Source: Trichinella spiralis
Lineage: Eukaryota
Reading direction: 5' to 3'
Assembly (NCBI RefSeq): GCF_000181795.1
Contig: NW_003526941.1
Location: 8,486,495 to 8,543,085, forward strand
Length of the DNA: 56,591 nt
Part shown: one piece after another, positions 5,446 through 56,591 of the stretch
How the letters are laid out: each line of letters starts with the position of its first letter
Position numbering within the stretch: the stretch's first letter is position 1
Made by a program: the position numbers and the translations under genes
Notes under the pieces: model-generated
Databases searched by the model: none
What the model was told of the DNA's origin: nothing
What the model saw: the letters and a program-made list of their open reading frames with translations, nothing else

Positions 5446-6004
5446 GGTGTGAAACAAGGTGAAAAAATTATTCCTTTTTTCTTTTTAATTCACTTTCAAC
5501 TTCCAATTCATTATTATCGTTGTTTCAATTTGATAAGTTGTTTATTTAAAAATACAAATGAAAGTGCAAAATTTAAAAATACAAAATTCGGTGCTCACCG
5601 CATGCATATGATTAGCAAATATTTTTTTCTTACTCTTCTACCTGCAGATCAGTTTCTCCGTTTTGATTTTATTATCGTTGAATGTATTTTTTTCAACTGA
5701 TTTTTACATATTATGTTTTTTAAAAAACTTTTCAAAGTTCATTTAATATTTATAAATGTAAATGTACTTGCTTGTTACTGATCTGAATTAATTTTGTTGA
5801 CGCTTTGTTTTTTGTTTAGTAAAAAAATTTCTTTAACAGAAAGTAAAATAATTTTAATTCATTTCCAATTACTGACTTCAATTAGGAAATCGTCTTAAAT
5901 TTGTTCAGCTTTGGCTTACAATTTTTTTGAAAAACTTGAATTTTTTTAATATGTTGTGTACTGTAGTTTTTTGTTCACTTTCACTATTTGAAGTGGGTTC
6001 GAAA

Positions 6005-9000: not shown

Positions 9001-9262
9001 TGGATAGAATATTGGCTACTAACTGTTGGATAGAATGATCAGTCTAAGAATGATAATCAGTCAAAGAATGAACTGAATGTGTAAATGAAGCATCGACGTG
9101 GCGCGTTATGTCTGACAGTTCTTAGCAGTTTCAGTTGAAATTAAATAAAATGAAGGAGTGTACATCTGAAAATGTTTCCGTGGACCCCACTTTTGGGAGC
9201 CACTGGTTTAGAATACAATGTTCACAGCGATGCAGTTTTTAATCTTATTCCTCATACTGTGC

Positions 9263-14203: not shown

Positions 14204-14213
14204 NNNNNNNNNN
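14204..14213. other. Assembly gap (10 N)
   Basis: Run of N. Confidence 1.
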
Positions 14214-14355
14214 GTATTTAAAAGTGGGTATAAGGGCCGATACAAAAATTTTATGAAGACGAGACATCACCTACTCTCAACATAATATGAAAAAAGTCTT
14301 AGTTTTACAGAAAAAATATCTTACTAATCTATTGCTTACTACAAACATAGGGTAA

Positions 14356-22277: not shown

Positions 22278-22700
22278 CACAGCTGTTCAACAAGTCAGTA
22301 GTTTTCCTTCAACAGTATCCTTTTGTAGTGATATTTTCTGAAAATTTCAAAACAAACTATGCACTAAAGAATTTGTTTGAAATCAACAAAAATATCCATC
22401 AAACATTCATCACAAACAAACAAATGAAATTTATTTGAATCAACATTAAAAATTTATAACACGTTCTGAAAAAAAAATTAATGCTTTCAAAATAGTTTAA
22501 TCAAGAAGAAAAGACGATATACTTTTGTCGTGGAAAAGTAACAATTTGAAACACCACACAACAATACTAGCAACGTATTATTTTGTGTGAGCAGAACAAA
22601 CAGAAAAGTAAACAACAACAAAAATCCAGCATCAAAGAAGCTAGCAGTGACGAGAATCGTGAATTATTACATCACGGTGCAAGAATTCCATTTTTCTTCT

Positions 22701-27800: not shown

Positions 27801-29597
27801 ACAACAACAACAACATGCACATGATGTGATTTGAAACAAAACCAGAAGACTAATGCTAATTTCCACATTGACTTACCGTCTCGGATCGTGCACTTCTACG
27901 GAAAATTTTTTATCCCGGTAGTATAAATTTTCCAACTGATTCCAGCCAAAACTCTGAACCAAATTTAGCTGACGACGTGAGTTCAAATTGCCAGCACAAA
28001 AACCAACTTACCCGCAAAGCACTGCTTTTGTCGTTGCTGTTAAACTGAAATATACCACGACTGGAAAATCCCAGCACAAACGGTGAACCAACTTTGTCCT
28101 TTTGAAATGAATGAAAAAAAAAATTTTTTTTTAAAGCTGTTTCTCTCATTACAACATTAGTCATCAGTATTCACAAATTCTCACTTTCACTTCGTAGAAA
28201 TGCATGCCATAAGTTTCTAACCGTTCGACCAAAGTCAAATATCTAGGTAGAATGGATGTGGATTTTTGTTGAACAATAATAATATTAAGTTTTCCAGAAA
28301 AAAAAGAACTAAAACATACTTTACAACAGCACTGCCTCGACTCATACCCGTCAAATTCTTGTGTATTTCAATAACTTGATCCTCGCTGAAACAACGCTGC
28401 GTATTATTCAATTGGACACATGAAAAACAATGTTCAACATTACCATTCCAAAGGAGAATAGTAGTATCTGAGCACGCTTTCTGGAAATACCGGCAATTTT
28501 TTGATCGCATTTCTCGTCGCATTCTCGCTAAAAAAAGAAAATCGATTGATAGATATAAGAAAAAGAAGCAAGTAATCAAATGAAAATCAAAGAGAACGTA
28601 CTTTCTGAAGTCGCCGTAGTAAGCTTGGACCAACAGAGCACCCAGTTGGAATATGGTATCGTGATCGGCATTGATGACATTCTGAAAAAATAATTGAAGC
28701 AAATATGAAAATTGTTTTTGCAATTTGCACACTATTTCAATGAAAGAATAAATTCAAAAAAATGATTTGCAGGTAGCATAACTTTTACAGTGTAAAAACT
28801 ACAGTAAGCAACCGGACAAAGTGTGCTTTTACGTCGAACATTTGCAACACTTGGAAAAGTATTGAAGAAATGAAATAAAATGAAATGAAATGAAATAAAA
28901 TACAGTTCATATTTCTGATAAAAGTTGAATGACATTCAATAGAACTGATTTTGTTCATGACTGAAATTTCGGCAGAGCAATTTGGAGGCTATAAACTAAT
29001 TTTATGATCAAATTGTTCTCAATTTTGTAAGAATATGCCTGAAAATTTGCTAAATTTACCCGATAGATTTGATTTCGAACTTGCAAAAATAACAATTCCA
29101 CCGATGCAGCGTTGGCAAATCGCATGAACGAGTCGACATAAAATCTTTAAAATAAAATAAATATATATAAATATATATATATATATAAACAATAATTCCA
29201 CAAAAAGCTGCATTCTGTACAAATAAATGATCGCTTGATTTACTTGACTAAATGGTGAAGCGTCAATACGGCACTGGAAGGGGCTAACTTTTTTGGAAAC
29301 TCGTGATCGAGCACCCGTCTGTCATCGTGCAACCAAAACAGCTGTTGCCTTGTATGGAAAAAAAAACACTCACAAACAATATTATGAATAGCATAATCGA
29401 AGCAAATGAGTATTAAAGAATTTTTTTTACTTGTCGTCTTGAAATGCGAGACCAAAATACTGTCTGTCTGGATCTTTCAAATGGCAATGCGAGGCGACGA
29501 TGTTCATCAGCTCAGCCACAGTCAAACGGGTCTGCACGACAATCTCCAAACGACGGTCATCGAGCAGCACTACCTGAGTCCGCCGACCTTCGGTCAT
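24838..29597 (-). CDS. FRMD4: FERM domain-containing protein 4 (FRMD4A/B-like)
   Basis: MTEGRRTQVVLLDDRRLEIVVQ..LVASH, WLHDDRRVLDHEFPKK, FERM-C (SIW..AISQHQFYLD), cytohesin-binding coiled coil (EG|LTGE.P..VKRRVGTSF; RRRRRQD), low-complexity tail with polyQ ending KAATVV*. Probable upstream exons at ~31620-31665 and ~34469-34640. Confidence 0.88.
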
Positions 29598-32500
29598 CTG
29601 AAACACCAGCTCTGAGAAAAAGAAGAAGCAAACACAATCGACAATTGAACAGCTAGCAGAAGCAGCAACAGCAAGCAAGCAAGCAAGTAATATTAGCAAA
29701 ATTAGCAAAAATTGGAAGAAGCCGCCAGAAAGAGCAGAGAATTGTGTATCATTGAACGTAAAGTGAAAAGTCGTTAACGCTTATTTTTACGACTTGCCCA
29801 TTCGACAACCTTTTCGCGCGCTGCATCTAGCATCATTATATAACAACAATGGCAATAAATTAAAAAGCAGCTAAAGCAGGTGTTGTTCACTGTGCTGTGA
29901 CCAAACGCAACAACAACAACAACACCAAGCAATGATCAATCAATCGACATCCTGAACAAATGCATTTTGTACATGCAAAAACAAAAAATCAAAAAATTAA
30001 TACAATACCAATCAACTGCGCTGTATGCTAAAATGGTAAAACTGCTAATATTGGTCCACCTCTTCCTCCTCAGTGTGTGCAATTGTTGCACGAGATACTA
30101 CTGTAACTTGCAGCAACTGAACATGGATTTTCCATTTTTTTTCTCTTCACATTTACAAAACAGGGTCAAGGTTTCAAAACTGCACAAATAATGGAAATGG
30201 GTGAAAAGCAGTTTATCAAAACCAATTTTCAAAAAATTACCCTCTCGGCGGCATATTTTTATTGATAAGCAATTGCAAATGTTTAAGAGCTTATTTGTCC
30301 TTTGATTGAAAAACAAAAAAGTTCACAACTTCTGCTCTAACATTTAAATAATTTACCAGTGTGCTAAATTGGAAGAGAAAAAAAATGCACGCGAAACCAC
30401 AAAACAGCACCTGGCTAACAGTGACACTTGAAGGTCATTTTTTTCAGCTTGCTAATAATTACACTTGACATTGTGAAATGCACACCAACATGAAAATTGC
30501 AAAAAAAAACCAACATAACACAGAAGAAAAAAAATTAATTTTCAAAATAAAAAGTAAACTGATGATGAATCATCAGACGAATAAACAAATGTGATCAAGC
30601 GAAATTAAACAGAATAATAATGATGAAGGTATAATAGAACAGAAACAAGCAGGATGCAACACACAGTGCAGCTATTTGAATTAAACTGCAAACAAGGGTG
30701 GTGCAAGAAAAGAAGAACAACGCTCGATTTATTGCGCCGGCCGAGCGTGGTGGGTGGATGTAGATTATTCAGTCAAGGACTGGTGAAAAAGCCATTCCAC
30801 CCCAATGTCGCCTACACGCTTCCAAATCAACCCCGTTCTCTTGGAGAAAATGATGCAAAAATCGACACGCAACAACATTTTCAAGTCACGGCGATCCACA
30901 GGGGAAAAAACATTTTTATCACCCAAATCAGCAAAATTTATAATTTCGTGAAAATTTTGAAACAACACAATCACAAAACAAAATACCAATTCACGACAAA
31001 TAATTTTTGATTATCAAAAGCAGTGCACAACGAAATCCACATCTGTAAACTGCTTTTTTTCAATTTGCATAAAAAAACACCACCAATACACGCGTGACTG
31101 GTACTGAATAGAATGGAATAGAGTTGAAAGTTTCACCATCAACACCTTCAAGCAAGCCTTCGCACAGATATCACACCGATTGGCAGCAGACACATACACA
31201 CACACACACACACATATATATATACATATATCACTTTGCCTGGGCCATGTGCATTAGCATGAAATTGAAACTGGTTGCCAATCTCGATACAATTAAATTC
31301 AACTTTCGTCTATTGTATGCATTATCATCGCGGAAACGAGAAAGCCACTTTTTCAGTAAAGAAGTTTATTCGCCTGGTTGTTCAAATTCAATCAATCAAC
31401 CAACCTGTATGCACACAAATTCCATCAACTATGATTCATTGGAAATGTGAGCAATAGCACAATCAAACTTAATAATCAACCTGTTCCAGGGATGAATATT
31501 TATTTGGTCCAATTGAATTGCAAATTTACAATAACGATAAGAATTTTTGATCAAAACTAAGAACACAGATTGGAAAAATTATAAAAAAAAAACAACATCA
31601 ACAACAAAAATTAAACATACCTTCTTCATTGACGTCATTTAGGTCGTCATCCCATCAGTCAACGCCTAAAAAGAATTTACATTTTTCAATAACTGACAAT
31701 TCATGCAGATTTTAAAAAAATGCGCAAACTTCTCCTTCAGAATAATTTTTAAAAAAAACAAAAAGTTGCATCGTAGCAAAGCATCACAGTGAACAAAAAA
31801 GTAATTTTAAAATATGCTGCTCTTTCTCTTCCCCCCCCCCCCCATTTTTTTTCTAAATTCCCTTGCAAATTGTTTGAACAATCGATGAAAATGACCGCAC
31901 GCACTTTTGAGCGCGCAATTCTGAAGGCCAATGTTCCATATTAATCGCGTGAGAGAATCGTGTTCAAATTGTACAACATCGACCCTGGAAAAAAAGACAT
32001 CAACACAGATAATATCAGAGGATGCATCCAGTGAACGGAAGAATACTGAACATCACAACTTCAATCCTGACAACAAAGAAAATGGACGGCAAACATGTTC
32101 CCATGCATAAATAACCAGCGTTGTTGAACGACACTGACAAGCATGACTCATCGCTTTCACAATTTTACACCCAGACAAAGTCAATATTGCTTTTTCACCG
32201 TTGAGCAAATGTCTTCTTCAGCTTCGCACCTCGGCGATCAACAGAGTGGCCAATAAACAAACAATTACTACCAACCACAGTTTCGGTCAACCACCAGCAG
32301 CAAACCGTATGTGACCTCCCCAGATGAAAAGAGGCAAGAAGCTTTCTTTTTTCGTGCATATTTAAATCGCACAAAGCACCAACCATTTGCCTATATCAAC
32401 CGTTGCCATAAAAACAAAAAAAAATCCAACGCGACAATTATTCAATGATTCATAAGCTGATGAACAAGACAACGCCACTGGCAATAATACATACATCCAC

Positions 32501-38885: not shown

Positions 38886-41539
38886 TTCTGTAATTACAAT
38901 AAATAATTCGCGATATACAAATGATGTTGCTCTTTTCCAAAATTTCCCTCAAAAAACACTCAAATCAATTTTGTTATTCAAACAGTAAATCATTGACTAA
39001 TAAAATTACAGTTCTCATTTACACGCAAACTGATAATTAAATGGAAGACCTGAGAAATTAAACATCAAGGAAAGTTTTAAATTATCTCCATGCTTTTATA
39101 TTTTGTAAACTTACAGGTTTGTCTGAAATAGTCAATTATGGAAACTGTAAAGCAAACTACGAAAAATCATTTCTAAAGTGAAATGGATATTTTAAAATTA
39201 TACTTGATCAATTTAATAATAATTACACGCCGGTTAACTTGTTTGCGATATAAAAACACATGAAAAGTAATTTAATGTAAAGTGAAAATAAGGTAATATT
39301 TTTGATTACGGTGCTTATCATTAAATGATGTTGCCAAATTGCACTTCATAAAAAACAAAATATTTATTAAATTGATTTTTCAAATATTTTTTATGAATTT
39401 ATTATTAAATTAAATATTTGATCACAAGTAAAATTTTTACATAAGTTTGGAAAAATGGAAAAGATAATTAAGGTTTAATATTTCAAGATTCAAATTTGAA
39501 CAACTGTTATAATTAAGGAAATGAAAATTCAGGGTATTTTGAAAAGAAATAAGAATGAAACTTCAAATAAATGTTTCAAATGAACAAAATTAAAACTAAA
39601 AAAGCATTGGATTGCAGTTTTGTAATCATGTTTCTTGATTATTGTTGCTGACAGTAATAAGTATTGAATGACTTGTCATTAGTTGAACGTGAACTTCTCT
39701 AGGAAAAGTATCAAAAACTGTAAAACAAAAAAAAATTTCATTTTTTGCATAATATTTAATCAACATGAAAGCAGTCTGCTAAGAAGTGCTTCAGGCATAA
39801 GAAAAAATTTCCAGCGAAAATGTTTTCGGTTGAAATTTTGTTAATTGGGTAAGTATTCGTTAAAAATTGTTGGTTAAATGGAATCATTTGATCTGCACCA
39901 AGTAACTGGTGTAGAATTCAACACAAAATTAGTCGGAATGATAGAAAATTCTTTAACGCAATTAAAATATCATTGAAAAATATGACGATTTACATATATA
40001 AGCAACTTTCATTTATATATTTTCACAATATGTGATGAGATTTAAGTAAATGATGCAAAACAATTTTAATTTATGCATGTAAAACATATAAATGCTATAT
40101 TTTACTTAGAAAAGTAGTTTGTGTTGAATTTTCATTTTCACGATTATCAGTAATCACGTAATCAACTTTCATGGACAAGAGTGTCATAACTTTTTAATTT
40201 TATGCGTTAATGTAATGAAATAGGAATAATTTAGCATGCTTTTTCAATGAAAGAAAGAATTTTGAAAATGAGCATTGAGCTATTAGCCATTTATTGAGAC
40301 TACGTGTTTGAATAACTTATAATTTTTTCTGTTTATTACACACTTTTTGGAAGTGCTGATTATCTTTGATATGAGAATAGCCATTATTTATTTTATCAAA
40401 CGATAAATCGAGTAAAATAAATGTCTGATGTAATTGCATAAGTGAAATATTAGTTTGTATAATAATTCTTCTTCCAAATAAATGTTACGGTTAATTTTAT
40501 ATTTAACTATAGCCTTTTTGTGTCTCTTTTAAGAGTCTTGCATGATTTGATTGGCGCCGTTGTGTCATTTTGTCATTAGTACTAAAATAGAAATTAAGGA
40601 ATTTTTAAGAATAGAAAGAATTTGTCTTTTGAAAGTCCAGTTTTAAGCTGTTTGCATATTGATAAATCGCTTCCAAAATTTGAATATGATTCCGTTCACT
40701 TTTTGCCTGCTGATGAAAATTTGTATTTGTTGTTCACGTTGGCAAACTTTATTTATATTCGAAGGTAATTTCGTTGTTTTTTTTAATTGAAAAGTAAGCA
40801 ATCTGAAAATTTTGATGTGTAGTAAGTTAATCTGAAACAGCTGACTGTATGGATGAAAGGAAAAAAACCGAAAATATGTCGATTTAAAATATTGAAAAAT
40901 TCGTGATTAATCTTTGTTCATTTTGTCGTTGATGTTCAGATTTTTTTAATCATTTATTCGTCGTCGCATTTTTATTTAAAATATTGTATTTCCCAGTGTT
41001 CAGGTATGCGATTATTGTAATTTGAAATTTTCATTTCTAGAAATTTTGTCTTTTGATCAAGTTTTATAAGTTCACACAATTGCGATAATGGTTTAAATTA
41101 TAAATAAAATTTAAAATGAATCTATGGAAAATAGCTGATATATTAGATGTTCAGGTATAAAATTTCTTTTTCTGACTTGATCTGTTCATGACATTACCAT
41201 GAAAAGAAATGATTTTAAATAGAAATTGAAGGATTTTTCAACTTATTTATTATTTTAATAATTTATATTTTTAGCTATTTTAACTTTAATTCCCATGTCA
41301 TGATATACAAACTTGAATACATATCATCGTTTACAGTGTTTGTGATAGTCATGCGGTGATTGTGATTGGTCAGTAAAAGTTTAAATTAGGGCGTTACTTA
41401 TTAAAGTGTTTTTTCCTCGAGGTTCATTCTTGCGTATTTTTTTCACCTTGTGCTTTTGGTTTGCAACGGTTGTTTACTCTTTAGCTTTCGAACAGGTTTT
41501 ATCATTTACTTTGCTGCGTTGAATTTTTCCTCAGTGGTG

Positions 41540-42484
41540 ATGAGTTCCGCTAACAAGAATAGAATTCGACGCATTCATTCGAAAGATTCGCATTTAGAAA
41601 ATGGTTCTGATAATGGAGTCACTGCCAAAGGGGTGCTGAAATTTGAAATTCACGAAGAATTTGTCATACACAAAGTGCACGATGCAGTTACGAATACAGT
41701 TGAAGTTTTCAACATTTGGATGTTAGAACGGTATTTGTTTGATTGTGTGGATTTGGGCGTACTTCTTGGTGGTAGGAAGTGTTCGAATTTGAAGGCGATT
41801 AAAAAGAAATTCAAATGCGTCATTGAATGTGGTGAGAGTGGCTACGCGATGGAGCCAGGTCAAGAGAGAAGAATGGCGATTTTTGTTGATTTCAAATGTA
41901 AGCATGAAGAATATGAAGCGGTGTATGATGGCATACGTTCTTCGTTTGCGACATTTTTGAAGGATGCAATTCAGGAAGCAATTTTTCGTCCGAAAGACAT
42001 CAAAGGACGAAAGAAAGCGACTAAATTTCATAAGAAAAGGACTATCCCAGATGAAGTATTAATCACTTACGATATGTATGAAAAAGTTCCAATGCTTAAT
42101 GGAGATGGTATGTATCGATTGATTGGCTCAGACTGGCGAATGGGTCCGGCAGAGGTGAAAGATGATGGTAATGGTAGCGATTTAGTTTACCTGATTTCTA
42201 TTATGGCAGTGAGAAAACATAACAATAGAAGGCAAAAAGTTGGAAATCTTTCGATAGTGTATCCTTCAACTTCTAAAGCAGAGCCTAAATGTGTGGATAA
42301 AAGAGTGTTGTTGATTCAGAAGAGTGATGATGAAGAATGTGAAGAAACGTTGAAAGTACCACACGAACCACCAAAGGAACACAGTGAATTTCCTTGTTGT
42401 TGTGCATTTTGCAAGGAGACGCTTCTTTGTTCCCTTTCTGATGGAACGGAAATTCAAAGATGCTGTCGAAAAAACGACGAATGA
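41540..42484 (+). CDS. Intronless ~314-aa protein of unknown function with a degenerate KH (STAR/maxi-KH-like) domain and a Cys-rich C-terminus
   Basis: Long uninterrupted ORF in AT-rich DNA, with ATG just after a TTTTCCTCAG acceptor-like site. VDLGVLLGGRKCSNLKAIKKKFKCVIECG resembles KH helix-GxxG-helix-strand with a broken GxxG. C-terminus CCCAFC..C..CC. Confidence 0.7.
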   Translation: MSSANKNRIRRIHSKDSHLENGSDNGVTAKGVLKFEIHEEFVIHKVHDAVTNTVEVFNIWMLERYLFDCVDLGVLLGGRKCSNLKAIKKKFKCVIECGESGYAMEPGQERRMAIFVDFKCKHEEYEAVYDGIRSSFATFLKDAIQEAIFRPKDIKGRKKATKFHKKRTIPDEVLITYDMYEKVPMLNGDGMYRLIGSDWRMGPAEVKDDGNGSDLVYLISIMAVRKHNNRRQKVGNLSIVYPSTSKAEPKCVDKRVLLIQKSDDEECEETLKVPHEPPKEHSEFPCCCAFCKETLLCSLSDGTEIQRCCRKNDE

Positions 42485-44374: not shown

Positions 44375-45354
44375 GCTCATGCCAATAGTTTACTGAATAA
44401 ATTGACATAATTCATAATTTTATTCTGTACGTTTGTCTTTATCAATTTTAATTTACAAGTACTATTGTTTATTTATGCATTTTTAAAGATTCTCTAGTTT
44501 AAAATCGGTTTACCACTGAATGCCATCTGATGTTTTTTTTCATTTACTATTTTTGACTTGAAAATAACTGTGCGCTCCTTGAAATGTTTTCCACAATAGA
44601 TTGATCATATACGTAAATTGAATTTCTATTCAGTTAATTTCTATTTCTTTTTGATTTCGTGATAATTGCTTAATAAATGATTTATTCTTTTGTTTATCAT
44701 AGTTATATTTTATCCTGTCTTAAATAAATTATGTTTTTGTAGGACTTTGTTTTTAAAAAGAATGTGATTAATCAGCTTGTTTCTGGTGAAAGTATAATTA
44801 GTGAAGAAATGTAAATGGAAAGTAAGTTCAATTTGCGATAAATTATATCATAAAATTTGTTAATTTTTCTTTTCATTATTCAGTACACATTTTCACTGAA
44901 AAGTTCAGTATTGCGAAACAGTTCTACTTTTGTGTGCGTGATCATTATTTAAAGTAATGATTTATTAATTAGTTAATTTACATAAAGGAACTCATAATAA
45001 TAATAATATGTGAAATGTGTGTAGCTCTGTTGGAGAGAATTCTTATTGGCATTGCACACAGTTTATAATTTTTATTTTTCGCTTATCGTTGATTGGTATC
45101 TGGATGAGAAAGAGCTCGAATGTTATATGAATATGGAGAAAGACGCATGGCCTAGTGGAATGAGAAATTTTCTGGCAGACAGACTGTCGGCACGGGGCAA
45201 GATAGGTTACGTTTGATAAATTCGACGTCTGAGATTGGCCGATGACCATTGGTCATTGTTAGTTTGCAGAAGTTTTTAGCTCACAAACGTCGAGAGTGCT
45301 GAGATTTTATTGCCGACGTGAATTTTTAACAAAACTGAAGCTACTACGAGTAGG

Positions 45355-46915
45355 ATGGAAACGTGCAGCAAGCCTTCAAGTAAATCTTTGTTTCAGATTG
45401 TTGTTGTTGATTGAAAATATTGTTTTATTGAATTATTATTATGGAAATTTTCTCTTTTCAGAAGTTTTGATTAATAATTCCGTTCTTGGTCAGGGTAGGC
45501 TGAATCAGCTTGGTGGAATGTTCATCAACGGACGTCCGTTGCCAGTCTATCTGCGTCTGAGAATTATTCAGCTAGCGTTGGCTGGCGTTCGTCCGTGCGT
45601 CATCAGTAGGCAGTTGAAAATTTCCCACGGTTGCGTGAGTAAAATTTTGGGTCGCTTTGCCGAAACAGGCAGCATAGCACCTGGTCAGGTACATAGTAAT
45701 AATTTTAAATATCATCTTTTGTTTTCACCGTTTTTACCATATTCAGCTTGGTAATAAGCAGAGACAATCAAAAGTGGATAGGAAAGGTTGTTGGAATAGC
45801 GTAGGACCAATTTTGAACGATCGTCCACCAGTATCTGATTACAGCATAAATCGCATTTTGGGTTTGCGTGAAACGAAAGGTATGAATGAAATTTTCCACA
45901 AGCCGGTTCGGCTGTTATTTAAAGTTTATATGAGAAGAGTGAAGTACTGACAGGCAGAGACAGAGTGGTATAAAAGTGACAGCGCGATCGTTGAGATGCA
46001 AATCACTGACCACTTGGTGACAGTTCAATTTGACTGACCACTACTGGTCAGGGCGGCATCGTTTTTACAGCTGATAAGCGAGGCCATGATTGTAGTAGAT
46101 CTGGGTGAGCGATAGGATGCGCTTGAAGGCGTCTGCTTTGGCAGACGGTCCGGCGGCTGCTTGGGAACAGCGGCGGTTCATCGTAGTTCATGCTTTATTG
46201 ATAAAAGTCCAATAATAATTAACGACCACGTCAACAAGTTCTCACTTCGACCTTTGCTCGCGTTGACCGGTCGTTACGCTTAACCTGAAAATTAGCATAA
46301 AATTTTTGTTTGTTCTTTGTATAAAGACTATTCTGAATGTTCAGTTTTCGTAAAACAATATACGCGGTAAAGCAATACTTTGAAAATTTCACTTCGTAAT
46401 GCTATCCTAAAACGTTTTGTGCGGAAATTGTTTTCCAACGTCACATTCTTCAACGCTTTGTAATTTCAATGCATGCAAATTGTATTATCATTGTATCATG
46501 TTTTGTTTTTTAATTAGAAAAGAAAGAAGATCGAAAAAATGCTCGTCGTCAACGATGCCATTTTACCGTAAGCCAAGTAGAACTGTTGGAGCGAGCGTTC
46601 CACGAAAACAATTATCCAGATGCCAAACGTCGCCAGGAACTTGCCGTTGAAGCTTGCATTAGCATTGAAAAAATTCAGGTGAAAAATCTAGCAACCAACG
46701 TCGAAAGTGATTTTCATTTTAGAAATTATCGCTGTTGTTTATAGGTGTGGTTCAGCAATCGCCGTGCTCGATATCGAAAGCAGCTCGCCACCGCTGCTGC
46801 AGCTTATAATAATAATAATAATAATAATAATGCAGGTTCGCCGTATTTCTTTTGGCCATGTTCACTTCCAATTTCTTTGCCATCCGCTGCCGTTGCTTTC
46901 GTTTCACACGTGTGA
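45355..46915 (+). CDS. Pax3/7 (gooseberry/pax-3)-like transcription factor: PAI subdomain + octapeptide + S50 homeodomain (exons 45355-45379, 45462-45688, 45747-45879, 46518-46678, 46745-46915)
   Basis: [51 protein letters not shown], octapeptide YSINRILG, homeodomain [19 protein letters not shown]..|[13 protein letters not shown]. All junctions are GT-AG and in frame. Confidence 0.85.
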
Positions 46916-48417
46916 AGTTTGTGATACAAATAAAACATAATTAAAAAATTAATTAAGCGATAAACAGTTTTTTGTTTCAACATCAACACAAATTATTTTT
47001 ACCATTGAATTTTTCTACTGTTATTTAAAATCTTTTTATTACCTTTTAATCTTTTTCAAATTTTTTTCAACATTCTTACTGTAATTGGGTTGACTATAAC
47101 GAAACACTAAATTTTCAGAGCTACCAACTCCATAAGCGAATTACCATCAGTTTTTTTTGATTATTCTGTTTTTCAAACTTCGTTAGTTGTCAGTTCTGAG
47201 TTGTCAATTCGATCCATTCGAAGAAACAACACAAATTTTCAAAAGCCGCAACTGTGGAAGGATATATAACGCATACATACGATCGTAATTGTTTTCAGTA
47301 TGCAATGGTAAGTGAGTTTGTTCATGTGCATGTATATATATATATACGGGATATTTCATAAACTGTGTAATCAACTGAATAAAGCAAAAAACTTATTTAT
47401 ATACATTTTTTAATCAAATTTTCTAAACAAATGTGGTCAGCAAGCAGTTTATAGAAAGAAAACATAAATTTATTAAAATTAAAAATTGTTATCCAACTTG
47501 AAAAGTTATCATGAAACTGTTTACAATTACCCTGACACGTGACGGCTAATCTGCATAAATAAGTAATAAAAATTTATGCGGTGTCTTCTGTAGCGGTCGT
47601 TTTGTACCAATTTGTGGTTGTGCTTTAATTTTCAGCATTAATACTTTAATCACTTGAATTTACCACTTATTTAACAATAACCTAAATTGCATTAAATTCG
47701 AATGTTTTCTAAATATTACAATTCAAGAAATTCGACTTTCATGTGACGACAGTGGATGATATACAAAGATTTTTCATTAGCAGTTTTCAGAAGCTTTGTA
47801 CACAGTTTCAAATTGTCGATTCTTTCTTGCTTATATTATATCATGTTACAATACTGAGCCTTCAACATTAGCTTATCTTGCCACCGCGTCGATGTTGTTT
47901 GTTGGTTTGGTTACGTGAAGTTTCATTTAAATTATTACAACACGTTGGCTAACATAAAACAAATCAAACAAATCCTGCACAAAGTAAACAAGAGATATGT
48001 GCATTATTTATCAGTCATCAGAGTTGAAATGAAATTACGGGAAAATTGTCGATAAAATTTATTTCTGCTTGTGAGCCACTTTTGCATCACATCCACAATG
48101 CATCGTATATGTCTGATAATGTAGAATATATATAAAAAGAAAAGTAATAAAATGACATTATTCAAGAAAATGTATATATGAATTCAGATTAGCAAAAAAG
48201 TAATTTATCAATAATTTTGCCTTTCGAAAGGGCAGTTTATCTGTTGAAAAAATTTCGATCAACTGCTATAAGATTGAGAAAAAAACTTCCATTTCCTATT
48301 CTAAATTCAGTTTATCAAAAGTGAATAAATAATTGTTTAAAAAAATTAACGTCACAATATTGCTAATTTACTGAGCAAGTGAAAAAATCCACTGCATGTA
48401 AGTAACGGATGAATTGT

Positions 48418-51064
48418 GCAAATTAGAGTAGTTTGAAAATAAGCCTGCCAATCAGTCAATAGTGCGCTTCCTCACTTCACTTTGTTGGCATCCACGTTGA
48501 TTTGCGCCCCTATTCCACTTTTATTACTGGTATATTGCTTTTTCACAGTTATCAAATACTCAATGTGTGTAAACAGTCAAATAATCAAATTGAAAATTTT
48601 TCTTCAGCATTGAATTAAAATACAAAGCAAAAATAAAATCATGGAAATATAATTAATAATTAAAAATACGGTAATATACAGTATACTTATTTCCAAATCA
48701 CCGATAGAAGGTTACAACGTAGCAGACCAATCAGAGAAAAGCAAAGATCCTAACAATAGATCATATTTTCAATAAACTGTTGTGATGCGTAGCAAATGTG
48801 CATGTAAGTGAAGAAAATTGTATCAAGGTATAAATTGAATATTAACACACATATTTTCTTGATATCTTTACATGATCGTGCCTATGTTTAAGTATTTGAT
48901 TACTTTTTATTTTAATATGCACAGAAATTGAAAAAAAATAAATACATATTCTCAGTTTCATGATGTTAATTTAGTTGTTCAAAAACATTCATGTTTCAAT
49001 TTGTTATTAAGCTCAGCCGTCTAGATGTAAACGTAAAATACGTTCACTTGACACTTACATGTGGCATTGAATAGGTCGAATATCAATCACTAAGCGCTTA
49101 GTATTTTCTATTATGCAAAACAACGAAATACCGTTTGTCGTGCAGAGAATCATTTAACTTTATATTATATTTTCAAAATGTAGATCATCAGAGACATTTG
49201 GTAAATTAAGTTTTTTTGTCTGGTTAATTTTGTTTGTCAGTTAGCGCAGTTTAGTGTGCTTATATGTTGGTGAAAAGCGTTTTGCGATGAGTTCCATTTA
49301 TGTAGGGCATTTTTGATTTTTCAAATCTCAAATTCAAACAAGCGAAGGCGTGTTTTGACTAAGTCAATGTTTTTGTTATGGTGTTTTCTGTCAGATAGTT
49401 TATATTTTGACTGAATTTCAAAAGTTAAGGTCATTTTTGAATTTTCAAATAACTGTCATTGTTTGTTTAATTTGCCATTCTGTTTGAATTGCTTCTTCAA
49501 ATTATTTATTACTTTTCTTCTCTTCTTATAACAAGCCAGTATTTAATATAAAATGAGCATGCATTTCATTTTTTGATTGCTTTTAATATTTAAAAGGTGG
49601 TTTAGTAATAGAGATGAAATTATTGTTTCCGCAATGAGAATTGCTTTTACGTTTAACACGGTTACAGTTAAATTTTTTCTCAAATACAATGCATTAGTTA
49701 AGTAAATAAAGCGCAATGAAAACAGTGGAATAGTGATATTTATCAGCAGAAATGAATAAAATAAAAATTTGCATGCGAGTTCGTTTCCATTATTGACATA
49801 TTGGAAATAATTTTAGTTTTACGTCGTCCGTGGATGGAAGCACTGCGTTTTGTTTGGAAAATCGACTGAAGACCAACTTTGAACGCCAAACACTAGATTT
49901 GCTTTTTATTTTCATTATTATTTTTTGGAAAAAATTCTGAAAAATAATTTTTCAAACAACATCAAAAGAGCATGAACATCAAATATGAGAAAATGATGAA
50001 TTTGGCAGTAAGTGGCAGTTTTTTCATTATTAAGTCGTAATCACATGGCAATATAGAACATAAATTCTCAGTATACTCTCTATGATTTCTCAATATGAGA
50101 TGATAAGTTACTTAATGAACGTCAAATTTCCGTACAATTAAGTTTCATTAAATAGCACCCTGTACACATTGTTTATCCATTATTAGAATATGCTCTTTTG
50201 AAATAGAATAAGAATTTTCAATAGCTAACATGTACGTTCAACTAACTATAAACAAACTTTAGCCAGAAAATTGCTCACTTAAAATTATCTCCATTTGAGC
50301 TACTTGGTTTACTGACTTAAGAAAATTTTCAGATATACACAGGTGGGTTATGTTTCGGAATTGTAAATATCAATGTCATTTTTGAATTTTCAAATGGTTT
50401 TTATTGGTAGAATTGAACAGTGCATATTATTTATTTTGTTCATACTGTATTGCGGCATAGGTTAGAATTTATCCTCAGTAAGAAGTTCCAACGCACAAAA
50501 ACCGGTTTTGAACGCTGCGCTATGCAAATAATGATCGCATTAAGGTGTATAATGGTCACTTAGAGCGCACTCGTTCGTTTGACTTACGTGGCAAGCGGTA
50601 GCGTCGTGAAATGTTCTCTGAGTTTATTTACGGCTTTCCGTTTTTAATTCTTGAAAGTATTCCATATTTCTCGTTCTGTTAATTTCTTTTCGAAACTCTC
50701 GTTATAATCATTTCGTTAATGTTATTTTTAATTGAAAATCAGTTACTTCTTCTATTTGAAAATTCATTGTTCAATTTTTCAATTTTGCTATGTGATAAAG
50801 TGGCAAAATTTTTGACTTAACATTTAGCATTCTTATAGATATGAACTATGAAGAAAAGAAAAGGCGAAAACACGGGCGATTCGTAGAGCAAGCAGATCGC
50901 GGACGACACGAAACGGATCACAGAAGACACGAAGCGGATCGCGGACGGCACGAAGCAGAACAAGAAAAGACAAAAGGTATATGTGGTTCCCCGTGGGTCC
51001 CAATTCTGTAGGTCTGGGCTAGGGATTCTTCGAAAGGGTGAAGTTATCCCATAGTTTTAATTAA
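48418..51064 (+). repeat. Continuous ~2.6 kb copy of the dispersed repeat found split at 13.1-15.8 kb
   Basis: 5' part is collinear with 13106-14203 and 3' part is the reverse complement of 14356-15772. Internal repeated motif GTCATTTTTGAATTTTCAAAT at ~49430 and ~50376. Confidence 0.9.
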
Positions 51065-51601
51065 GTTAACGACGAACCTACATGGCTGAGTTTTGAGTTA
51101 ATGCAGTACTTGGTCTTTCACGCAGCAAAATTTACGTATGCAATTGCTTTCCTGTGTCGAAATAATTTTGATTTTTGTTTATTTTGTAATCTTTATTTTT
51201 CTTCTCTTGCATAGTTTGATTTTGAACATTTTCCGAACCAAGTTCTTTTTATTTTTTAAAGTTTTTCTCATTCATTCAAACTTTACATATTTTATTCATT
51301 TTTTAATTTCTCCCATTATTTCTTTTGATTTTTTTATTTTTACTTTTTGTATCTTATATTGTACATTTTATTATTTTTTTTCAATTTATTTTTCCAAATA
51401 TTTTTTCTCTGATTTTTTTACTTTAACTTTAACTTTGTAAAAACTCTGACACATGGAAAGCATCGCATACAAATACGTAAACACGTAATAAACCGTAATG
51501 CACATGGAGAAGAAAGAAGAAAAGTGGAGCAAGCCACGAGCGAGTGAACATGCAAAGCATACATGCATTTCTAGGTCAGAGTAACTTTATGCAAATGTGA
51601 T

Positions 51602-51668
51602 GGTAAGCATTGCCGTTGGCATTCTGCTACGTGCACTTTGTGCTATGCAAATGCCGTAGCAATGTTCC
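51602..51668 (+). ncRNA. Candidate pre-miRNA-like hairpin
   Basis: AGCATTGC/GCAATGTT, TGGCATT/AATGCCG, TGC/GCA and GCAC-ttt-GTGC nest into one ~65 nt stem-loop. No known seed was recognised. Confidence 0.4.
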
Positions 51669-54299
51669 TTATATAAATTTCTGTTTATTGAGAGACTGCA
51701 CTATAGTATAAATGTTCGGTGCTGAAGGGCGGTCTATTTACTTACTGCATTGCGTTATTTGGTCATTTCGATGCTTCACTGCAACAATTACGTTGTGATT
51801 GTTAGACTAAGAATATGAAGAAACCACGAACATCGGTTACAAAATGTATGACTCTACGTTTGCTTCATACGTCATTCCTGACAGGTCTGCTGACAGGTAT
51901 GAATTTTCATATATTTGCTATTTTTCATACAATAATTTCTTTCTTTCTCTTGGCACACTGCACTAAACATGCGCGCTTTTTAAGCTTTTCGTAGTTGTTT
52001 GATTTTAGTCTTTTTGAATGGAAACTAGCGCATTGTTCTTCAGTAATGATGTTCAATTAATATTCGAGACCTTATTACGGCCAAGCCAATACATAATAGT
52101 ACTAATGGTATATTTTGCTATAGTTTTCAATAGTCCTTACAAATCCATTTGTAAAGTAGTACTCTGACATAGCAGTTGATCCCCTCCCGCATTATCTTTA
52201 CTGTCCACTGTAATGTTTATTGCTAAGGTAACATACTTGCCCAATTGTTTAAAGAAAATGTCTGTCACCGGGATACTGCAGTCGCACAATCGCACCCCTA
52301 AATGCTTGTCACTGCTCAAATCGTGAAAAACATTGTTTCAGCATGACATAGGAAAACTGCTGTTACCTAGAGAACACACTTTTATACTACCACCTTTGAT
52401 ACTTTCAGAATGGCAGTAACGTTCCCTTCATTTTTGAAATGACTCCTTAAAGTTTCCATTATGTCATTGTACCGCCAATAGCACTGATATATACAGATGC
52501 ACGTATTTTCTGTCATTGAGAAAATAACTCAATGCCCATAAATGTTGTCAGTATTGATGAATGAAGCAATGCCTGAATATTATACGTGAAGATTGATTGG
52601 AAGAACGCATATGACAACTTCCACCTCCTCCATCCTTCAACTTCTCCCTCATTCCTTCCTGCTATGCTGTCCCACCCTCCTTTCCTTTCTAATGATCCCC
52701 ATCATTGAGCTCGTAATAATACTAAGCTGAACAGAGATCGCATTAAACTGAAAATTCTCCCCACCCTCCCCCCTATATTTCGAGCTGAATGAACAGCACT
52801 TAGCTGTTTTCATTTCATAATAATCTAATTTCTCATAATTGTTATCGACTAGCAATATAACCAAATCCAGGCTACTCGTGATTCTTTTGTTTTATTCTTT
52901 TCATAAAATGCAATGCAGAATTGTCACCCGCATAAGTTTGTTGAATTCATTGCAAATCGCTCAGTTACTGAATTTCTGCGATTAGGGTTTTTCTCACATT
53001 GTATGTGGCGCGCTGATGCAGTGCTCAACCAAGTTTGCAGTCTTACTATAAATCATCATAAGGTTTAAACAAAAGTTTAGTTAAAGCAAAATTTCAATAG
53101 TAAATAAGCTGTCAAGTGGCATACCCACTGGTGCAGCCGCTTACCATCATGTTGTCTATGCTGCGCACTTGTTAAATTCTGTGCTTAGATAAATTGTATA
53201 TTATAAAATTTCTGAAAAAGTATTTTATTTTCGAAACTATTTTCAATGGAAGCTATTTTTTTATTATCCATATAATTTTGATTAGAAGAAAAGCATTGAT
53301 AAAATATAAATTATTGAATCACCTTGTACTTTCAAGCAACTAAATTACACAACATGCATAAATACGCAGTAATAGCATTTCCGTTTATTTTTAGTAATTT
53401 GCGATGCTTCATGTTAATATGTTTCCGTTTTAGGTAATTTTAGGGACAAAATTTGCATAACAATGCAATATTACGTAGTAATAGGAAGTGTGTAAATAAA
53501 AACGTAATAAATTTCATCGTCTCGTTTCATAATGTGGTCGGGGGGGGGTTTATTTTACTGCGCTATTTTCTGATGGAAAATTAGGTCGTTCTTCCTGAGC
53601 AAAGTAAATAGTTATTTGCATAATTTACTTAGTATTATACATCTAATCAGAGAACTTCGATTACATTAGGTTATTCAGTTCAATGCAATGCTATCAATCT
53701 AGCACGTGGTCAACTATAATTCCGCTCTTCAACACCATCCATGAATAACTGGTAAGTTGGATTTGATATTTTGGTGGTGGTATGCTATGCATGTTACTAT
53801 ACTTATATGGTGAATGGAAACTGACGGGTTTCTTTTCTATTGTTGTTATTGCTAACTTTCAGGTACATCAGATGCGGAAGAAGAAGAAGTATCTATTTCT
53901 GTTTTTATTTAGAGATGACTGCATTAATATAATTCACTTTTAGAATTTGCATTATGTTATTTATATTCATATCAGTGAATATGAAACAGCCAAATTCTGA
54001 AAACTAACTGAATATGGTAACTATGCATCATGATGAATATGCCTTGCTTTTTACTTGAATTTTTCTTTTAAATTTAGATTGAAGGTTGCAGTGCCGTTAG
54101 CGCCACATTGCTTTCATTCTAACTGCAGCACTAATGTTAAATTATCATGTATATGATGTCATAGATTAGATGCCCTTGATTCAATTCTTTTAGGAATTGA
54201 AAATTACATTTGCCTTGCTACGTTTTGAAAATGCCCAGATGCAATCTATTATCAGTAAAGGCGGGTAAAAGCTGTTGAACAGTGGTTGTTGGAGTTGCT

Positions 54300-55746
54300 G
54301 ACCTGGCCTTCAAAAAACGTATGACAAAAAACAGTAAGTGTTGAATTTGTTTAATTACATAGCATGACGATAGGCGTATTAGATATAGGTATAATTGGGT
54401 AACTTCTGTAATTACAGATTACGTCATTAGCTGAGTTTTTATGGTGTTCCTTTTGCTCTGGGTAACGTGATACGTCATGTTCACATCATTTCGTTCAATA
54501 TTTGGCATCACAAACATCCGTAAGTATTGAATTTGCTCCTGATTGCAGTTGGATCGTACAGTGTTTTTGTGCAGTGACGTTTCGCAGTTGTTATAGTGTG
54601 GTTTCACTTATCATAAAAGTAAGAAGGATTGGATTGTAATTGTAGCAGATTCCCTGAGTCAGTCGAGCAGCGTTTGTACAAATCCTGACAACGTATTGGT
54701 GCTTGTTGCTGTCAGAGCGTTTCCAGTGTGATATGACAAAAATTAGTGAGTAGCTTTTGTTTATAATAGTTGTGGATGAAAAGCTTGTACCGTTGCAACC
54801 CGTGTTCGCATGGACGTAAAGGCATTTCCTAGCCGTCCCAGTGTGCCTTTGTTTTTCACAAATAGTATCGTTCATCAGTAAGTATTGATTTTGATTAATT
54901 AGATAGCTGGAAGATGCGAGTGTTACATGGATTGAATTTGAATATGTATCTGAATATGAATATGAATATTTATAATAACATATAACATCATTAGCTGAAC
55001 TGTTTTCAAGTTACTTTCGCTCTGGACACCGTGCTTAGTCGTGTTCACATCAGTTTGTTCTAAATGTGGCATCACAAACATCCGTAAGTATTTAACTTGC
55101 TCCTGATTGCAGTTGGATACGTAAAGTGTACACATTTTATCCATGACAGCATTACATTAACATCAAGCGAATTCGATGTTTCTTCTGATGACCCTCTGAG
55201 TTGAAGTTGACGCAGTGACGTTCATCATTGGTACTAATGTGATTTCACTTATCATAAGAGTAAGAAAGAAGTAAATGATTGTAATTCTAGCAGATTACGT
55301 TGAGACAGTCGAGTACCGCTAGTGCCCGTATAGATCTTTTGTCAGTGCGTTTCCAATGTGATATGACATTAGTAAGTAGTTTTTTTATAATAGCTGTGGA
55401 TTATGTCGTCTCATGAAGCCCGTACTGATGCCAACCAGTGTTCACGTGGCGTTTCAATTCCGTTTTCTAGCCGTCCCAGTGTGCCTTTACTTATCACAAA
55501 TAGTAAGAAGGAATTTGATATTATGACAGCAATGAAATATGTTAAATAGAACAGGTCGCTGTACATTTCAGCATTTTGTTCTTGATAGCAATGGATTACG
55601 TCATCATCAGAAAATTTTTGTTTATTCTCAGCCGATGGCACTCTCAAGTTGGGTTTCCTACGGTTCTGATGTTTTTCCTTGTCACACAAGGTAAGGAAGA
55701 ATTGCATTATTTTTGTAGTAAAACTGTTTTGTATTTAAAGTTTTAG
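54300..55746 (+). repeat. Diverged array of ~70-110 nt non-coding units separated by 22-31 nt GT..AG intron-like spacers; includes a tandem duplication 54418-54865 / ~54981-55502
   Basis: Units start with a GATTACGT-like motif and end with (AGTGTG)..AT(C/G)ACAAA followed by GTAAG. Four units (A-D) recur in the same order in two copies. Confidence 0.75.
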
Positions 55747-55939
55747 TGCGTGACTGTGAAGACGCCGCATCTTGAAAGATCTGTATCGAATGACGTCGTT
55801 ATTCTGCTGTTATTCGTCTTCAATTACTTTCTGTAATATGGCTGTAATATGGTATATAACTATATTCAACTATGAATTTTAGAATCATGAAATTCTTCAC
55901 TAAGAGCAGTAGAGCTGTACAAGTACTGGTACGTAGCAT

Positions 55940-56245
55940 CAAAGTAAGTGGATAAAGTAATGCAGGTAAGTAGAATCGAAGCGGATATATTAAAGTGCGT
56001 ACAGGTAAATGGATTGCAGGTAAGTACTGAAGGTAAGTACAATAATGTAAGGTGCAGGTGAGTAAAATGAAAAGGTAAGTTGTGCAGGTAAGTATAAAGA
56101 AGAATGATATCGTAGAGTAAAGTGGATTGAAGTTCGAGGTAAAGGTAAGTATGAGGCGTTACTCAAGGTAAAGGTAAGTATGAGGCGTTACTCAAGGTAA
56201 AGGTAAGTACGAGGCGTTACTGGGTAATTGCAGGACATGTAAGTA
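55940..56245 (+). repeat. Cluster of consensus 5' splice-site motifs, including a 29-bp tandem repeat (~56137-56221, ~3 copies)
   Basis: Ten exact GTAAGT plus one GTGAGT in ~300 bp, all on +. Unit AGGTAAAGGTAAGTATGAGGCGTTACTCA occurs about three times. Confidence 0.85.
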
Positions 56246-56287
56246 TCGAAGAGCCGGGTGATGAATTATGTAAATCTTCGAAAAAAA

Positions 56288-56591
56288 TACCTGAGGGAAT
56301 GCCTTGGGCATAGCCTGAAAATTTGCATATCCTCCTGAAGGCAAATATTGTGCAATAAAATGCTTTCGGCGTAGCCTGCGGTAATATGCAAATTTTTATT
56401 TGCCCTGGGGCATAGCCTGAGGCGACGCCTGCGGCTAAATTTCAAAAAATTTCAAAATTTCCAAAAATTGCCTGAGGCATAGCCCCAGGCATAGCCTGAG
56501 GGCAAATAAAATTTGCATATTACCCTGAGGCGATTAAAAATTTGCATAAAACCTCCCTGAGGGCAAATATTGTGCTATAAATTGCATGGGG
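56288..56591. repeat. Palindromic GCCN3-4GGC / ATTTGCAT motif array with an internal inverted repeat, running off the window end
   Basis: GCCN3-4GGC at 56301, 56402, 56415, 56427, 56470, 56482, 56494. Octamer at 56321, 56386, 56511, 56540. Inverted repeat 56380-56405 / 56500-56524. Confidence 0.85.

What the first reader, a model, noticed from the sequence alone, without database searches (positions are those of the whole stretch)
54300..55746. Non-coding cassette array punctuated by ultra-short (~29 nt) intron-like spacers
Seen: GT..AG segments at 54334-54362 (29 nt), 54389-54417 (29), 54520-54548 (29), 54619-54645/8 (27/30), 54746-54769 (24), 54878-54902/6 (25/29), 55084-55112 (29), 55121-55149 (29), 55260-55290 (31), 55372-55393 (22), 55503-55529 (27) and 55691-55718 (28). 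Most start GTAAG and many carry a TAAT/TGAT branch-like motif before YAG. The protein-gene introns I resolved here are ~58 nt or longer. The intervening 70-110 nt units share ends (GATTACGT-like start; AGTGTG..AT(C/G)ACAAA end) with variable interiors, and splicing them gives no consistent ORF. Inference: either a multi-exon structured lncRNA or small-RNA precursor cut into cassettes by mini-introns or spliceosome-marked sites (a repeat/variable-spacer architecture), or decayed DNA from an organism with tiny introns.
Basis: partly seen in the sequence, partly recalled or inferred. Interest (0 to 1): 0.85.

Follow-up and report, generated by a model that had tools for sequence, protein, structure and literature searches.

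The report
Spliced Trichinella repeat with unspliceable spacers
This is one copy of a many-copy, non-coding repeat of the parasitic worm Trichinella whose RNA is spliced at ordinary 53-104-base introns; the striking 22-31-base intron look-alikes were not seen cut out, likely because they are too short, and half of their ends are used with more distant partners instead.

Summary
The 12 GT..AG segments are there as described and exceed chance (10 GTRAG..YAG of 22-32 nt against 1.27 in shuffles, 0 of 1000). The window is Trichinella, probably T. spiralis. The array belongs to a dispersed element of at least 4.7 kb, present in several copies in 8 Trichinella taxa and annotated there as dozens of frame-inconsistent hypothetical proteins. 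Stranded RNA reads show + strand transcription (94% of depth) and splicing, but the introns removed are 53-104 nt, like those of the neighbouring ABCC10 gene (52-212 nt). No 22-31-nt skip appears in the rows shown, and reads run through the segments. Five segment GTs and five or six segment AGs are used, each with a more distant partner. No ORF, coding constraint, shared fold, Rfam family or spliced leader was found. Best reading: a non-coding repeat built by nested tandem duplication of an exon-plus-intron monomer whose spacers lie below the splicing floor. Caveats: most reads come from other copies (23 of 545 are 99% alike), and tables were cut. Not mini-introns; modest interest.

The parts
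51815..56574 (+). Minimum extent of the dispersed multicopy element (true ends not found; the window ends inside its last part)
   Evidence: Hypothetical proteins from other copies and taxa tile 51815-56574; all 30 bins of 52600-56260 covered by 461-1134 contigs of mixed identity in 3 of 4 runs, 25 bins in the fourth
53604..53669 (+). Upstream intron, 66 nt, GT..AG
   Evidence: Joint 53598>53670 with 6 letters between, run X4 only
54194..54333 (+). Exon Z (5' boundary from sequence only)
   Evidence: Follows TTTTAG; ends at the used donor 54334
54334..54417 (+). Real intron, 84 nt = segment 1 + 26 nt + segment 2
   Evidence: Joint 54333>54418: 4 raw reads X17, contigs X4 (depth 299) and X7
54418..54877 (+). 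Module copy 1 (units A, shortened B, C, D)
   Evidence: Aligns with copy 2; lacks 76 nt of unit B
54470..54548 (+). Alternative intron, 79 nt, in copies that carry GT at 54470; uses the AG of the 54520-54548 segment
   Evidence: X7 contig joint 54469>54565 whose letters between resemble the sequence from 54549; A>G at 54470 in 9 of 34 reads; placement inferred, one contig
54520..54596 (+). Intron, 77 nt, using the GT of the 54520-54548 segment (less certain)
   Evidence: X4 contigs only, depth 139, 'between: not known'; 0 reads in X17
54619..54648 (+). Short GT..AG spacer, read through
   Evidence: 29 minus-mate reads at 54629 against 38 at 54593 and 27 at 54675; X1 and X4 contigs span it
54711..54769 (+). 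Intron of about 56-59 nt that contains the 54746-54769 segment
   Evidence: X4 (depth 233) and X7 joint from 54710, continuing with three extra letters and the start of unit D; acceptor place inferred
54878..54981 (+). Intron, 104 nt here; this copy has AT instead of AG at the acceptor
   Evidence: Joint 54877>54982: 10 reads X17, X4, X7; T>G at 54981 in 14 of 16 reads
54982..55502 (+). Module copy 2 (units A', B', C', D')
55084..55149 (+). Real intron, 66 nt = segment + 8 nt + segment; often retained
   Evidence: Joints 55083>55150 (8 reads) and 55081>55150 (2 reads), X4, X7; 57 reads inside at 55130
55231..55290 (+). Real intron, 60 nt; a weak upstream donor is used instead of GTAAG at 55260
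   Evidence: 17 reads X17, X1 contigs, loose ends in X4 and X7
55341..55393 (+). Intron, 53 nt; contains the 22-nt segment 55372-55393
   Evidence: X1 and X7 joint 55339>55400 with 7 letters between; the variant exon start agrees with P0009; placement inferred
55503..55529 (+). Short GT..AG spacer; other copies continue differently after 55522
   Evidence: Loose end in 11 X17 reads
55589..55690 (+). Unit E, a distant relative of units B and D
   Evidence: Local alignment z 5.2 and 4.9, 0 of 300 shuffles
55691..55746 (+). Intron, 56 nt = segment 55691-55718 + 28 nt
   Evidence: Loose ends at 55690 in X1 and X7 that match from 55747
55944..56260 (+). Cluster of 12 further GTRAG motifs, several as back-to-back CAG|GTAAG, with a 29-bp tandem repeat at 56137-56221
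   Evidence: splicing here not examined with raw reads
56270..56591 (.). Fold-back region with CCTGAGG and TATGCAAAT repeats; 17-bp perfect inverted repeat 56380-56396 / 56508-56524
   Evidence: joined to the array in models from T. spiralis, T9, T. britovi and T. nativa

Best explanation
The array is the middle of a many-copy Trichinella repeat that is transcribed on the + strand and spliced at ordinary 53-104-nt introns into an RNA with no reading frame, and its 22-31-nt GT..AG segments, not seen removed, are likely spacers too short for the spliceosome. Shown: multicopy, + strand RNA, the introns listed under parts, read-through of the short segments, no ORF. Inferred: an ancestral monomer of about 110-140 nt (acceptor, exon, donor, short intron) was duplicated in tandem to give units A-E; four units then became a 560-640-nt module present once, twice or three or more times per element; the element spread through the genome. 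Where donor and acceptor lie under about 52 nt apart they cannot pair, so each pairs with a farther site, or a weak donor about 30 nt upstream takes over; splicing is therefore partial and variable. Most likely the element is a selfish or neutral non-autonomous repeat and its partly spliced RNA would be handled as repeat RNA by the worm's RdRP/Dicer and DNA-methylation pathway (untested).
For: Multicopy: 461-1134 contigs of 88-100% identity per run; 30 of 30 hits are Trichinella hypothetical proteins from 8 taxa, 12 from T. spiralis; 16 more non-bacterial hits, of which the 7 looked up are Trichinella. Module number varies: joint 54614>55274 in X1, X4, X11; three D stretches in P0049. Strand: 94% of raw-read depth from first mates on -; the four GT-starting joints with raw reads have 4, 10, 8, 17 reads on - and 0 on +. 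Introns 53-104 nt match ABCC10 introns of 52-212 nt. GT..AG joints are absent from X11 and X13, which look like DNA. Nearer YAG sites under 50 nt are passed over at 8 of the 10 used donors. Non-coding: 14-23 stops per frame in about 350-370 codons after real splicing; stop-plus-frameshift cost no better than shuffles in 8 of 8 versions; 2 of 21 exon variants synonymous; models read the same units in different frames. Units are related: 5 cross-unit pairs at z over 4 among 78. In C. elegans intervening introns of 14 and 30 nt were never seen excised (PMC4165533, passages).
Against: Only 23 of 545 raw reads are 99% or more alike, so the RNA evidence is for the family, hardly for this copy, which also lacks one acceptor. 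The tables were cut (21 joints, 20 indel rows, 107 loose ends hidden; 34, 76, 304), and the shortest skip listed was 46 nt and the longest 'left out' 4 nt, so a blind spot of the tool for 22-31-nt skips is not excluded. One raw-read run only, total RNA, with much retention even of real introns. The kind of X11 and X13 is not on record. No element ends, target duplications or transposase were found, so the way it spreads is unshown. The higher likeness of the segments between tandem copies (p 0.018) hints at selection, which a neutral repeat does not predict.
Confidence: 0.66

Rival explanations
1. A functional long non-coding RNA family in which the too-short spacers are kept by selection, to force mutually exclusive or combinatorial use of the cassettes, or to keep splicing inefficient as a signal for silencing machinery.
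For: Present in 8 taxa, probably at an orthologous place in T. patagoniensis (P0001 and P0020 both on a 731,028-nt contig); segments 88% against units 77% alike between tandem copies; GT and AG of 54520-54548 are used in two overlapping introns that exclude each other; cryptic introns in S. pombe lncRNAs recruit silencing factors (PMC7229227, abstract and outline); T. spiralis has Dicer-type 23-25-nt RNAs against transposons (PMC4323106, passages).
Against: No shared fold; variant places across copies are not depleted in the segments (8 of 40); no long-range cassette skipping among the 15 joints shown; module number and unit interiors vary freely.
Confidence: 0.15
2. A protein-coding multigene family with many small exons, of which this copy is a pseudogene.
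For: About 46 predicted proteins match; a stop in unit A is a sense codon in 27 of 32 reads; a 48-codon ATG frame in unit D' recurs in many models.
Against: The RNA-supported introns break the frames; models use different frames and junctions; no Pfam family at cut-off; no third-position bias between tandem copies (14, 10, 13). The recurrence of the D' frame is built into the query.
Confidence: 0.07
3. The 22-31-nt segments are true introns, removed rarely, in an unsampled stage, or only in the past (a relic of a gene from an organism with tiny introns).
For: Strong GTAAG..TAAT..YAG form far above chance; their removal in copy 2 gives an 83-codon open stretch across two junctions; tool tables were cut.
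Against: 0 of 12 removed in the rows shown; read depth does not fall across 54619-54648 or 55372-55393; the open stretch is not significant (P 0.11; P 0.20); animal introns under 30 nt are reported only for myxobolids and Dicyema among 51 genomes (PMC13644364, abstract and passages).
Confidence: 0.06
4. A precursor of single-hairpin H/ACA-like small RNAs, each unit ending in ACA or ATA plus three bases, released at the donor by the first splicing step alone.
For: A(C/T)A lies exactly 3 nt before the GT at 5 of the 10 GTRAG donors (54520, 54619, 55084, 55260, 55372); unit C' can pair its two ends.
Against: These five are three independent cases and descend from one motif; no unit folds better than shuffles, no consensus pair, no Rfam match, no pile-up of read ends (weak in a random-primed library); in B' and C' the ACA block lies inside an intron that is removed.
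Confidence: 0.04

Closest known systems
Mutually exclusive exon clusters with too-short intervening introns in C. elegans (egl-15 5B/5A, 14 nt; let-2 9/10, 30 nt; bet-2, gly-5, gly-6; PMC4165533, passages read)
   Same: Duplicated exon-like units separated by GT..AG spacers below the minimal intron size that are not excised; each site is used with another partner.
   Different: Those are single pairs of coding, frame-keeping exons in single-copy genes; here about ten spacers stand in a row in a non-coding multicopy repeat, and neighbouring units are usually still joined through shifted splice sites.
Higher-order tandem repeats (HOR organisation as described in PMC5615363, passage read)
   Same: Diverged monomers (A-E) amplified together as a four-unit module of variable copy number.
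   Different: Only 1 to about 3 modules per element, dispersed, spliced; not a long satellite array. T. spiralis is reported to have few satellites (PMC3634726, passages read).
Repeat-derived lncRNAs with cryptic, inefficiently spliced introns in S. pombe (PMC7229227 abstract and outline; PMC5322907 and PMC11696164 search listing only)
   Same: Repeat RNA with poorly spliced introns in an organism that silences repeats by Dicer-made small RNAs.
   Different: No link to small RNAs, chromatin or centromeres was tested here.
Ultra-short introns of myxobolids and Dicyema (PMC13644364, abstract and passages)
   Same: Length of the GT..AG segments (22-31 nt).
   Different: There they are the normal introns and are removed, with reduced splice motifs; here the genome's introns start near 52 nt and the segments are not seen removed.
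Trichinella spliced-leader RNA genes (Tsp-SL1-15; PMC7668243 supplement 4 part 1, PMC7986045 passages)
   Same: Multicopy non-coding RNA genes with a splice donor after a short block.
   Different: All 15 leaders end in AAG and none resembles the unit ends by eye; no AAG|GT with an Sm site 20-50 nt on lies in 51000-56591.

Membership tests
Ultra-short spliceosomal introns (under 32 nt) | GT..AG segment with branch-like motif | tested here: met
Ultra-short spliceosomal introns (under 32 nt) | Segment is removed from the RNA as a unit | tested here: not met
   0 of 12 in the rows shown, read-through in raw reads; tables cut and tool blind spot not excluded
Ultra-short spliceosomal introns (under 32 nt) | Host genes have introns of this size | tested here: not met
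   ABCC10 introns 52-212 nt (16 of 17 fits; one ambiguous 41); one gene only
Repeat-derived spliced lncRNA | Transcribed from one strand and spliced | tested here: met
   family level
Repeat-derived spliced lncRNA | No coding potential | tested here: met
   this copy only, other copies judged through gene models
Repeat-derived spliced lncRNA | Multicopy in the genome | tested here: met
   copy number not measurable, no genome held
Sterically enforced mutually exclusive exons | Spacer below the minimal intron size and not excised | tested here: met
Sterically enforced mutually exclusive exons | Mature RNAs hold one or the other neighbouring exon, never both | tested here: not met
   Neighbouring units are joined through shifted sites (55230>55291, 55340>55394) or read through
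Non-autonomous DNA transposon (MITE, Helitron, Mutator-like) | Terminal inverted repeats or Helitron ends, and target-site duplication | tested here: inconclusive
   A fold-back lies at the right end but the window stops inside it; no matching left arm among the 25 longest of 64 inverted pairs
H/ACA snoRNA | ACA box 3 nt from the 3' end | tested here: inconclusive
   A(C/T)A 3 nt before 5 of 10 donors; RNA ends unknown
H/ACA snoRNA | Stable hairpin with a guide pocket | tested here: not met
   no Rfam match
H/ACA snoRNA | Complementarity to an rRNA or snRNA target | not tested
   No Trichinella rRNA sequence was fetched
Spliced-leader RNA gene | Leader ending in AAG, donor, Sm site 20-50 nt downstream | tested here: not met
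miRNA or siRNA precursor | Hairpin precursor and mapped 21-25-nt products | not testable with these tools
   No hairpins; no small-RNA run could be laid; supplements of PMC3212509 unreadable

The most novel reading that the evidence does not exclude
A lineage-specific, multicopy long non-coding RNA family in encapsulating Trichinella that keeps a row of strong splice donors and acceptors on purpose too close to pair, so that splicing stalls or is rerouted; this would make splice-site crowding the signal by which a nematode without piRNAs marks repeat RNA for RdRP/Dicer processing and DNA methylation, or a way to build combinatorial non-coding isoforms.
Probability: 0.15. Interest if true: 0.7.

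Novelty: new variant of a known kind. Interest (0 to 1): 0.36.

Why it matters
Removal of 22-31-nt introns in a nematode would have been a major surprise; the RNA evidence speaks against it. What remains is an apparently undescribed, expressed repeat family that offers a natural ruler for the minimal intron size in a basal nematode (nearer acceptors under 50 nt are passed over, introns of 53-60 nt are removed), and that accounts for dozens of doubtful hypothetical proteins in public Trichinella annotations. If the spacers prove to be under selection, it would link splicing to repeat silencing in a worm that lacks piRNAs.

Tried and rejected
No genome held for the window, so copies could not be counted or aligned at DNA level. 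Rfam: 0 matches at gathering score in the window; 6 weak matches at E up to 10 in 53000-56591, none in the array. No tRNA or tmRNA. The run search listed no holder on record as RNA; the raw-read run X17 came in by species label. I laid 6 of the 23 listed runs (X1, X4, X7, X11, X13, X17). Three long hits (P0040, P0047, P0048) are unrelated repeat-rich sequences, two with bacterial-type domains, and were dropped before counting. The one metagenome match to a 19-nt motif (L001) is chance: no alignment to the window. The 139-codon minus-strand frame 54594-55010 has no Pfam family at cut-off and no usable Atlas hit, and the RNA is on the other strand. Hammerhead ribozyme considered for one CTGATGA at about 55186: not kept in other copies (loose ends), no Rfam match. 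The first intron-mapping script broke at the repeated ABC domain and was redone. Earlier findings of this scan: nothing related in 5 look-ups. No description of this element was found in 8 paper searches; older papers on cloned Trichinella repeats (recalled, 1986-1996) did not come up and could not be compared, and the small-RNA tables of PMC3212509 could not be read.

Full report
Observation. All twelve GT..AG segments are at the stated places. In 54300-55750 there are 10 GTRAG..YAG stretches of 22-32 nt on the + strand and none on the - strand; 1000 dinucleotide shuffles give a mean of 1.27 and never reach 10, and 406 stretches of the same length from the rest of the window reach at most 3. 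The count overstates independence: the region is two tandem copies of a four-unit module, 80% alike, the first missing 76 nt of unit B. The units are also distantly related to each other (five cross-unit pairs at z above 4 among 78 pairs, letter shuffles), which points to a monomer that was duplicated long ago and then amplified as a higher-order unit (inference).

Organism. The ribosomal protein gene at 43862-44371 matches Trichinella at 99-100% and an ABCC10 exon matches T. nativa at 98% and T. pseudospiralis at 91%. A T. spiralis gene model (P0008) is identical to the window over 46 and 29 residues of this fast-changing region, so the window is probably T. spiralis. No genome was held. Mapping two ABCC10 proteins onto the window gives introns of 52-212 nt, with one ambiguous 41-nt fit that is 65 nt with the other protein.

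It is a multicopy element. A 51-residue frame of unit D' found 30 proteins among 33 candidates, all hypothetical proteins of Trichinella: 12 T. spiralis, 5 T. patagoniensis, 3 each T. nelsoni, T9 and T. murrelli, 2 T. nativa, 1 each T6 and T. britovi. These are all encapsulating taxa (my knowledge); absence from the others is weak evidence. A full HMMER search gave 33 hits, 14 already seen, 16 new of the same kind (7 looked up, all Trichinella) and 3 unrelated repeat-rich sequences that I dropped. The models tile the window from 51815 to 56574 and read the same units in different frames (unit E: 4 and 6 models in two frames; B': 3 and 2), the mark of gene predictions on non-coding DNA. Laying four runs on 52600-56260 gave 461, 490, 1134 and 87 contigs spread over 88-100% identity. 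A joint that skips one whole module stands in three runs including the DNA-like X11, and a T. nelsoni model holds three D stretches, so module number varies.

It is transcribed and spliced, but not at the short segments. In the one raw-read run (X17; 545 of 11.0 million reads laid) 94% of depth comes from first mates on the - strand, which in the usual stranded library means + strand RNA. Joints with raw reads: 54333>54418 (84 nt, 4 reads), 54877>54982 (104 nt, 10), 55083>55150 (66 nt, 8, plus 2 with a variant end), 55230>55291 (60 nt, 17), all on that strand and each also in contigs of one to three other runs. From contigs only, placed by me from the letters between or loose ends: 53604-53669 (66), 54470-54548 (79), 54520-54596 (77), 54711 to about 54769 (56-59), 55341-55393 (53), 55691-55746 (56). 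None of these GT..AG joints is listed for X11 or X13. No skip of 22-31 nt is among the 15 joints, 12 indels or 24 loose ends shown in either call, although weak rows (single contigs of depth about 18) made the list. Reads run through the segments: 29 at 54629 against 38 and 27 on either side; 21 at 55383 against 28 and 22. Five of the twelve GTs (54334, 54520, 54878, 55084, 55691) and five or six of the twelve AGs (54417, 54548, 55149, 55290, 55393, probably 54769) are used, always with a partner 53 nt or more away. At 8 of the 10 used donors one or more YAG under 50 nt away is passed over; at two donors YAG sites at 55-68 nt are passed over too, so distance is not the only rule. The strong GTAAG/GTGAG at 54746, 55260 and 55372 lie inside introns that start at weak donors 29-35 nt upstream.

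Limits of this evidence. Only 23 of 545 reads are 99% or more alike, so the picture is that of the family; this copy lacks the acceptor at 54981 that 14 of 16 reads carry. Rows were hidden (21 joints, 20 indels, 107 loose ends). The shortest skip the tool listed was 46 nt and the longest deletion 4 nt, so I cannot show that it reports 22-31-nt skips; the unbroken depth is the independent argument. Real introns are also retained often in this total-RNA library (57 reads at 55130).

No coding, no fold. After real splicing every frame holds 14-23 stops and the longest open stretch is 57-76 codons; after removing the short segments the best is 83-89 codons, P 0.11 against shuffles. A stop-plus-frameshift cost is no better than shuffles in 8 of 8 versions (lowest P 0.20). 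Differences between tandem copies show no third-position bias (14, 10, 13); 2 of 21 exon variants from the 40 best-supported are synonymous, though one turns a stop into a sense codon and these variants mostly reflect this copy's own changes. Ten of ten units fold no better than shuffles, eight aligned units give no consensus pair, Rfam and tRNA scans are empty for the array, and no spliced-leader layout is present. The segments are more alike between tandem copies than the units (94 of 107 against 250 of 325, p 0.018), but are not spared among variant places across copies (8 of 40 against 21% expected).

Mechanism. Shown: a dispersed repeat makes + strand RNA that is partly spliced at introns of normal size and has no ORF. 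Inferred: each monomer carries an acceptor and a donor; between neighbours the spacer is 22-31 nt, under the floor of about 52 nt seen in this window, so the two sites cannot pair and are rerouted. This is the steric rule described for five exon clusters of C. elegans, where spacers of 14 and 30 nt were never seen excised (PMC4165533, passages). It works like those clusters but is not one: neighbouring units are still joined. Untested: how the element spreads (a fold-back at the right end is cut by the window edge) and what becomes of the RNA; T. spiralis silences repeats through Dicer-type 23-25-nt RNAs and DNA methylation (PMC4323106, passages), the likeliest fate.

Novelty. Each ingredient is known; a row of about ten unspliceable spacers in a non-coding higher-order repeat is an unusual combination. 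Introns under 30 nt in animals are reported only for myxobolids and Dicyema (PMC13644364, abstract and passages); this is not a further case on present evidence. Verdict: observation confirmed, mini-intron reading not supported, spliced non-coding repeat supported; interest 0.36.

Noticed in passing
window 55944-56260 (+): Twelve GTRAG motifs in about 300 nt, several as CAG|GTAAG back to back like recursive splice sites, with a 29-bp tandem repeat; highest contig depth of run X1 here and tandem expansion in other copies.
   Followed up: partly
window 56270-56591: Fold-back region of CCTGAGG and octamer-like TATGCAAAT repeats with a 17-bp perfect inverted repeat; the same motif recurs at 50521, 51588, 51644, 53451 and 53614.
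   Followed up: partly
window 13122-16339 and 48446-51068: A second repeat family present twice in the window, 75-86% alike and partly inverted, directly upstream of the element.
   Followed up: no
window 51815-56574: At least 37 named hypothetical Trichinella proteins in public sets are built from this element in varying frames and are probably annotation artefacts.
   Followed up: partly
window 55054-55215: Opposite-strand reads peak here (up to 11.5 against 58.5), a possible sign of antisense RNA.
   Followed up: no
window 4034-46937: Ordinary genes: PET/LIM protein (4034-5442), kringle-domain protein (5876-9030 and on), ABCC10 (about 16960-22290, -), FERM protein (28238-29780 and flanks, -), intronless mitochondrial ribosomal protein L23 (43862-44371), paired-box homeodomain gene (45263-46937); an open frame of 359 codons at 41405-42481 has no Pfam family.
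   Followed up: partly
L001:1368-1386: A 19-nt motif of unit D matches a bacterial tRNA-gene-like stretch in a metagenome contig by chance; no other likeness to the window.
   Followed up: yes
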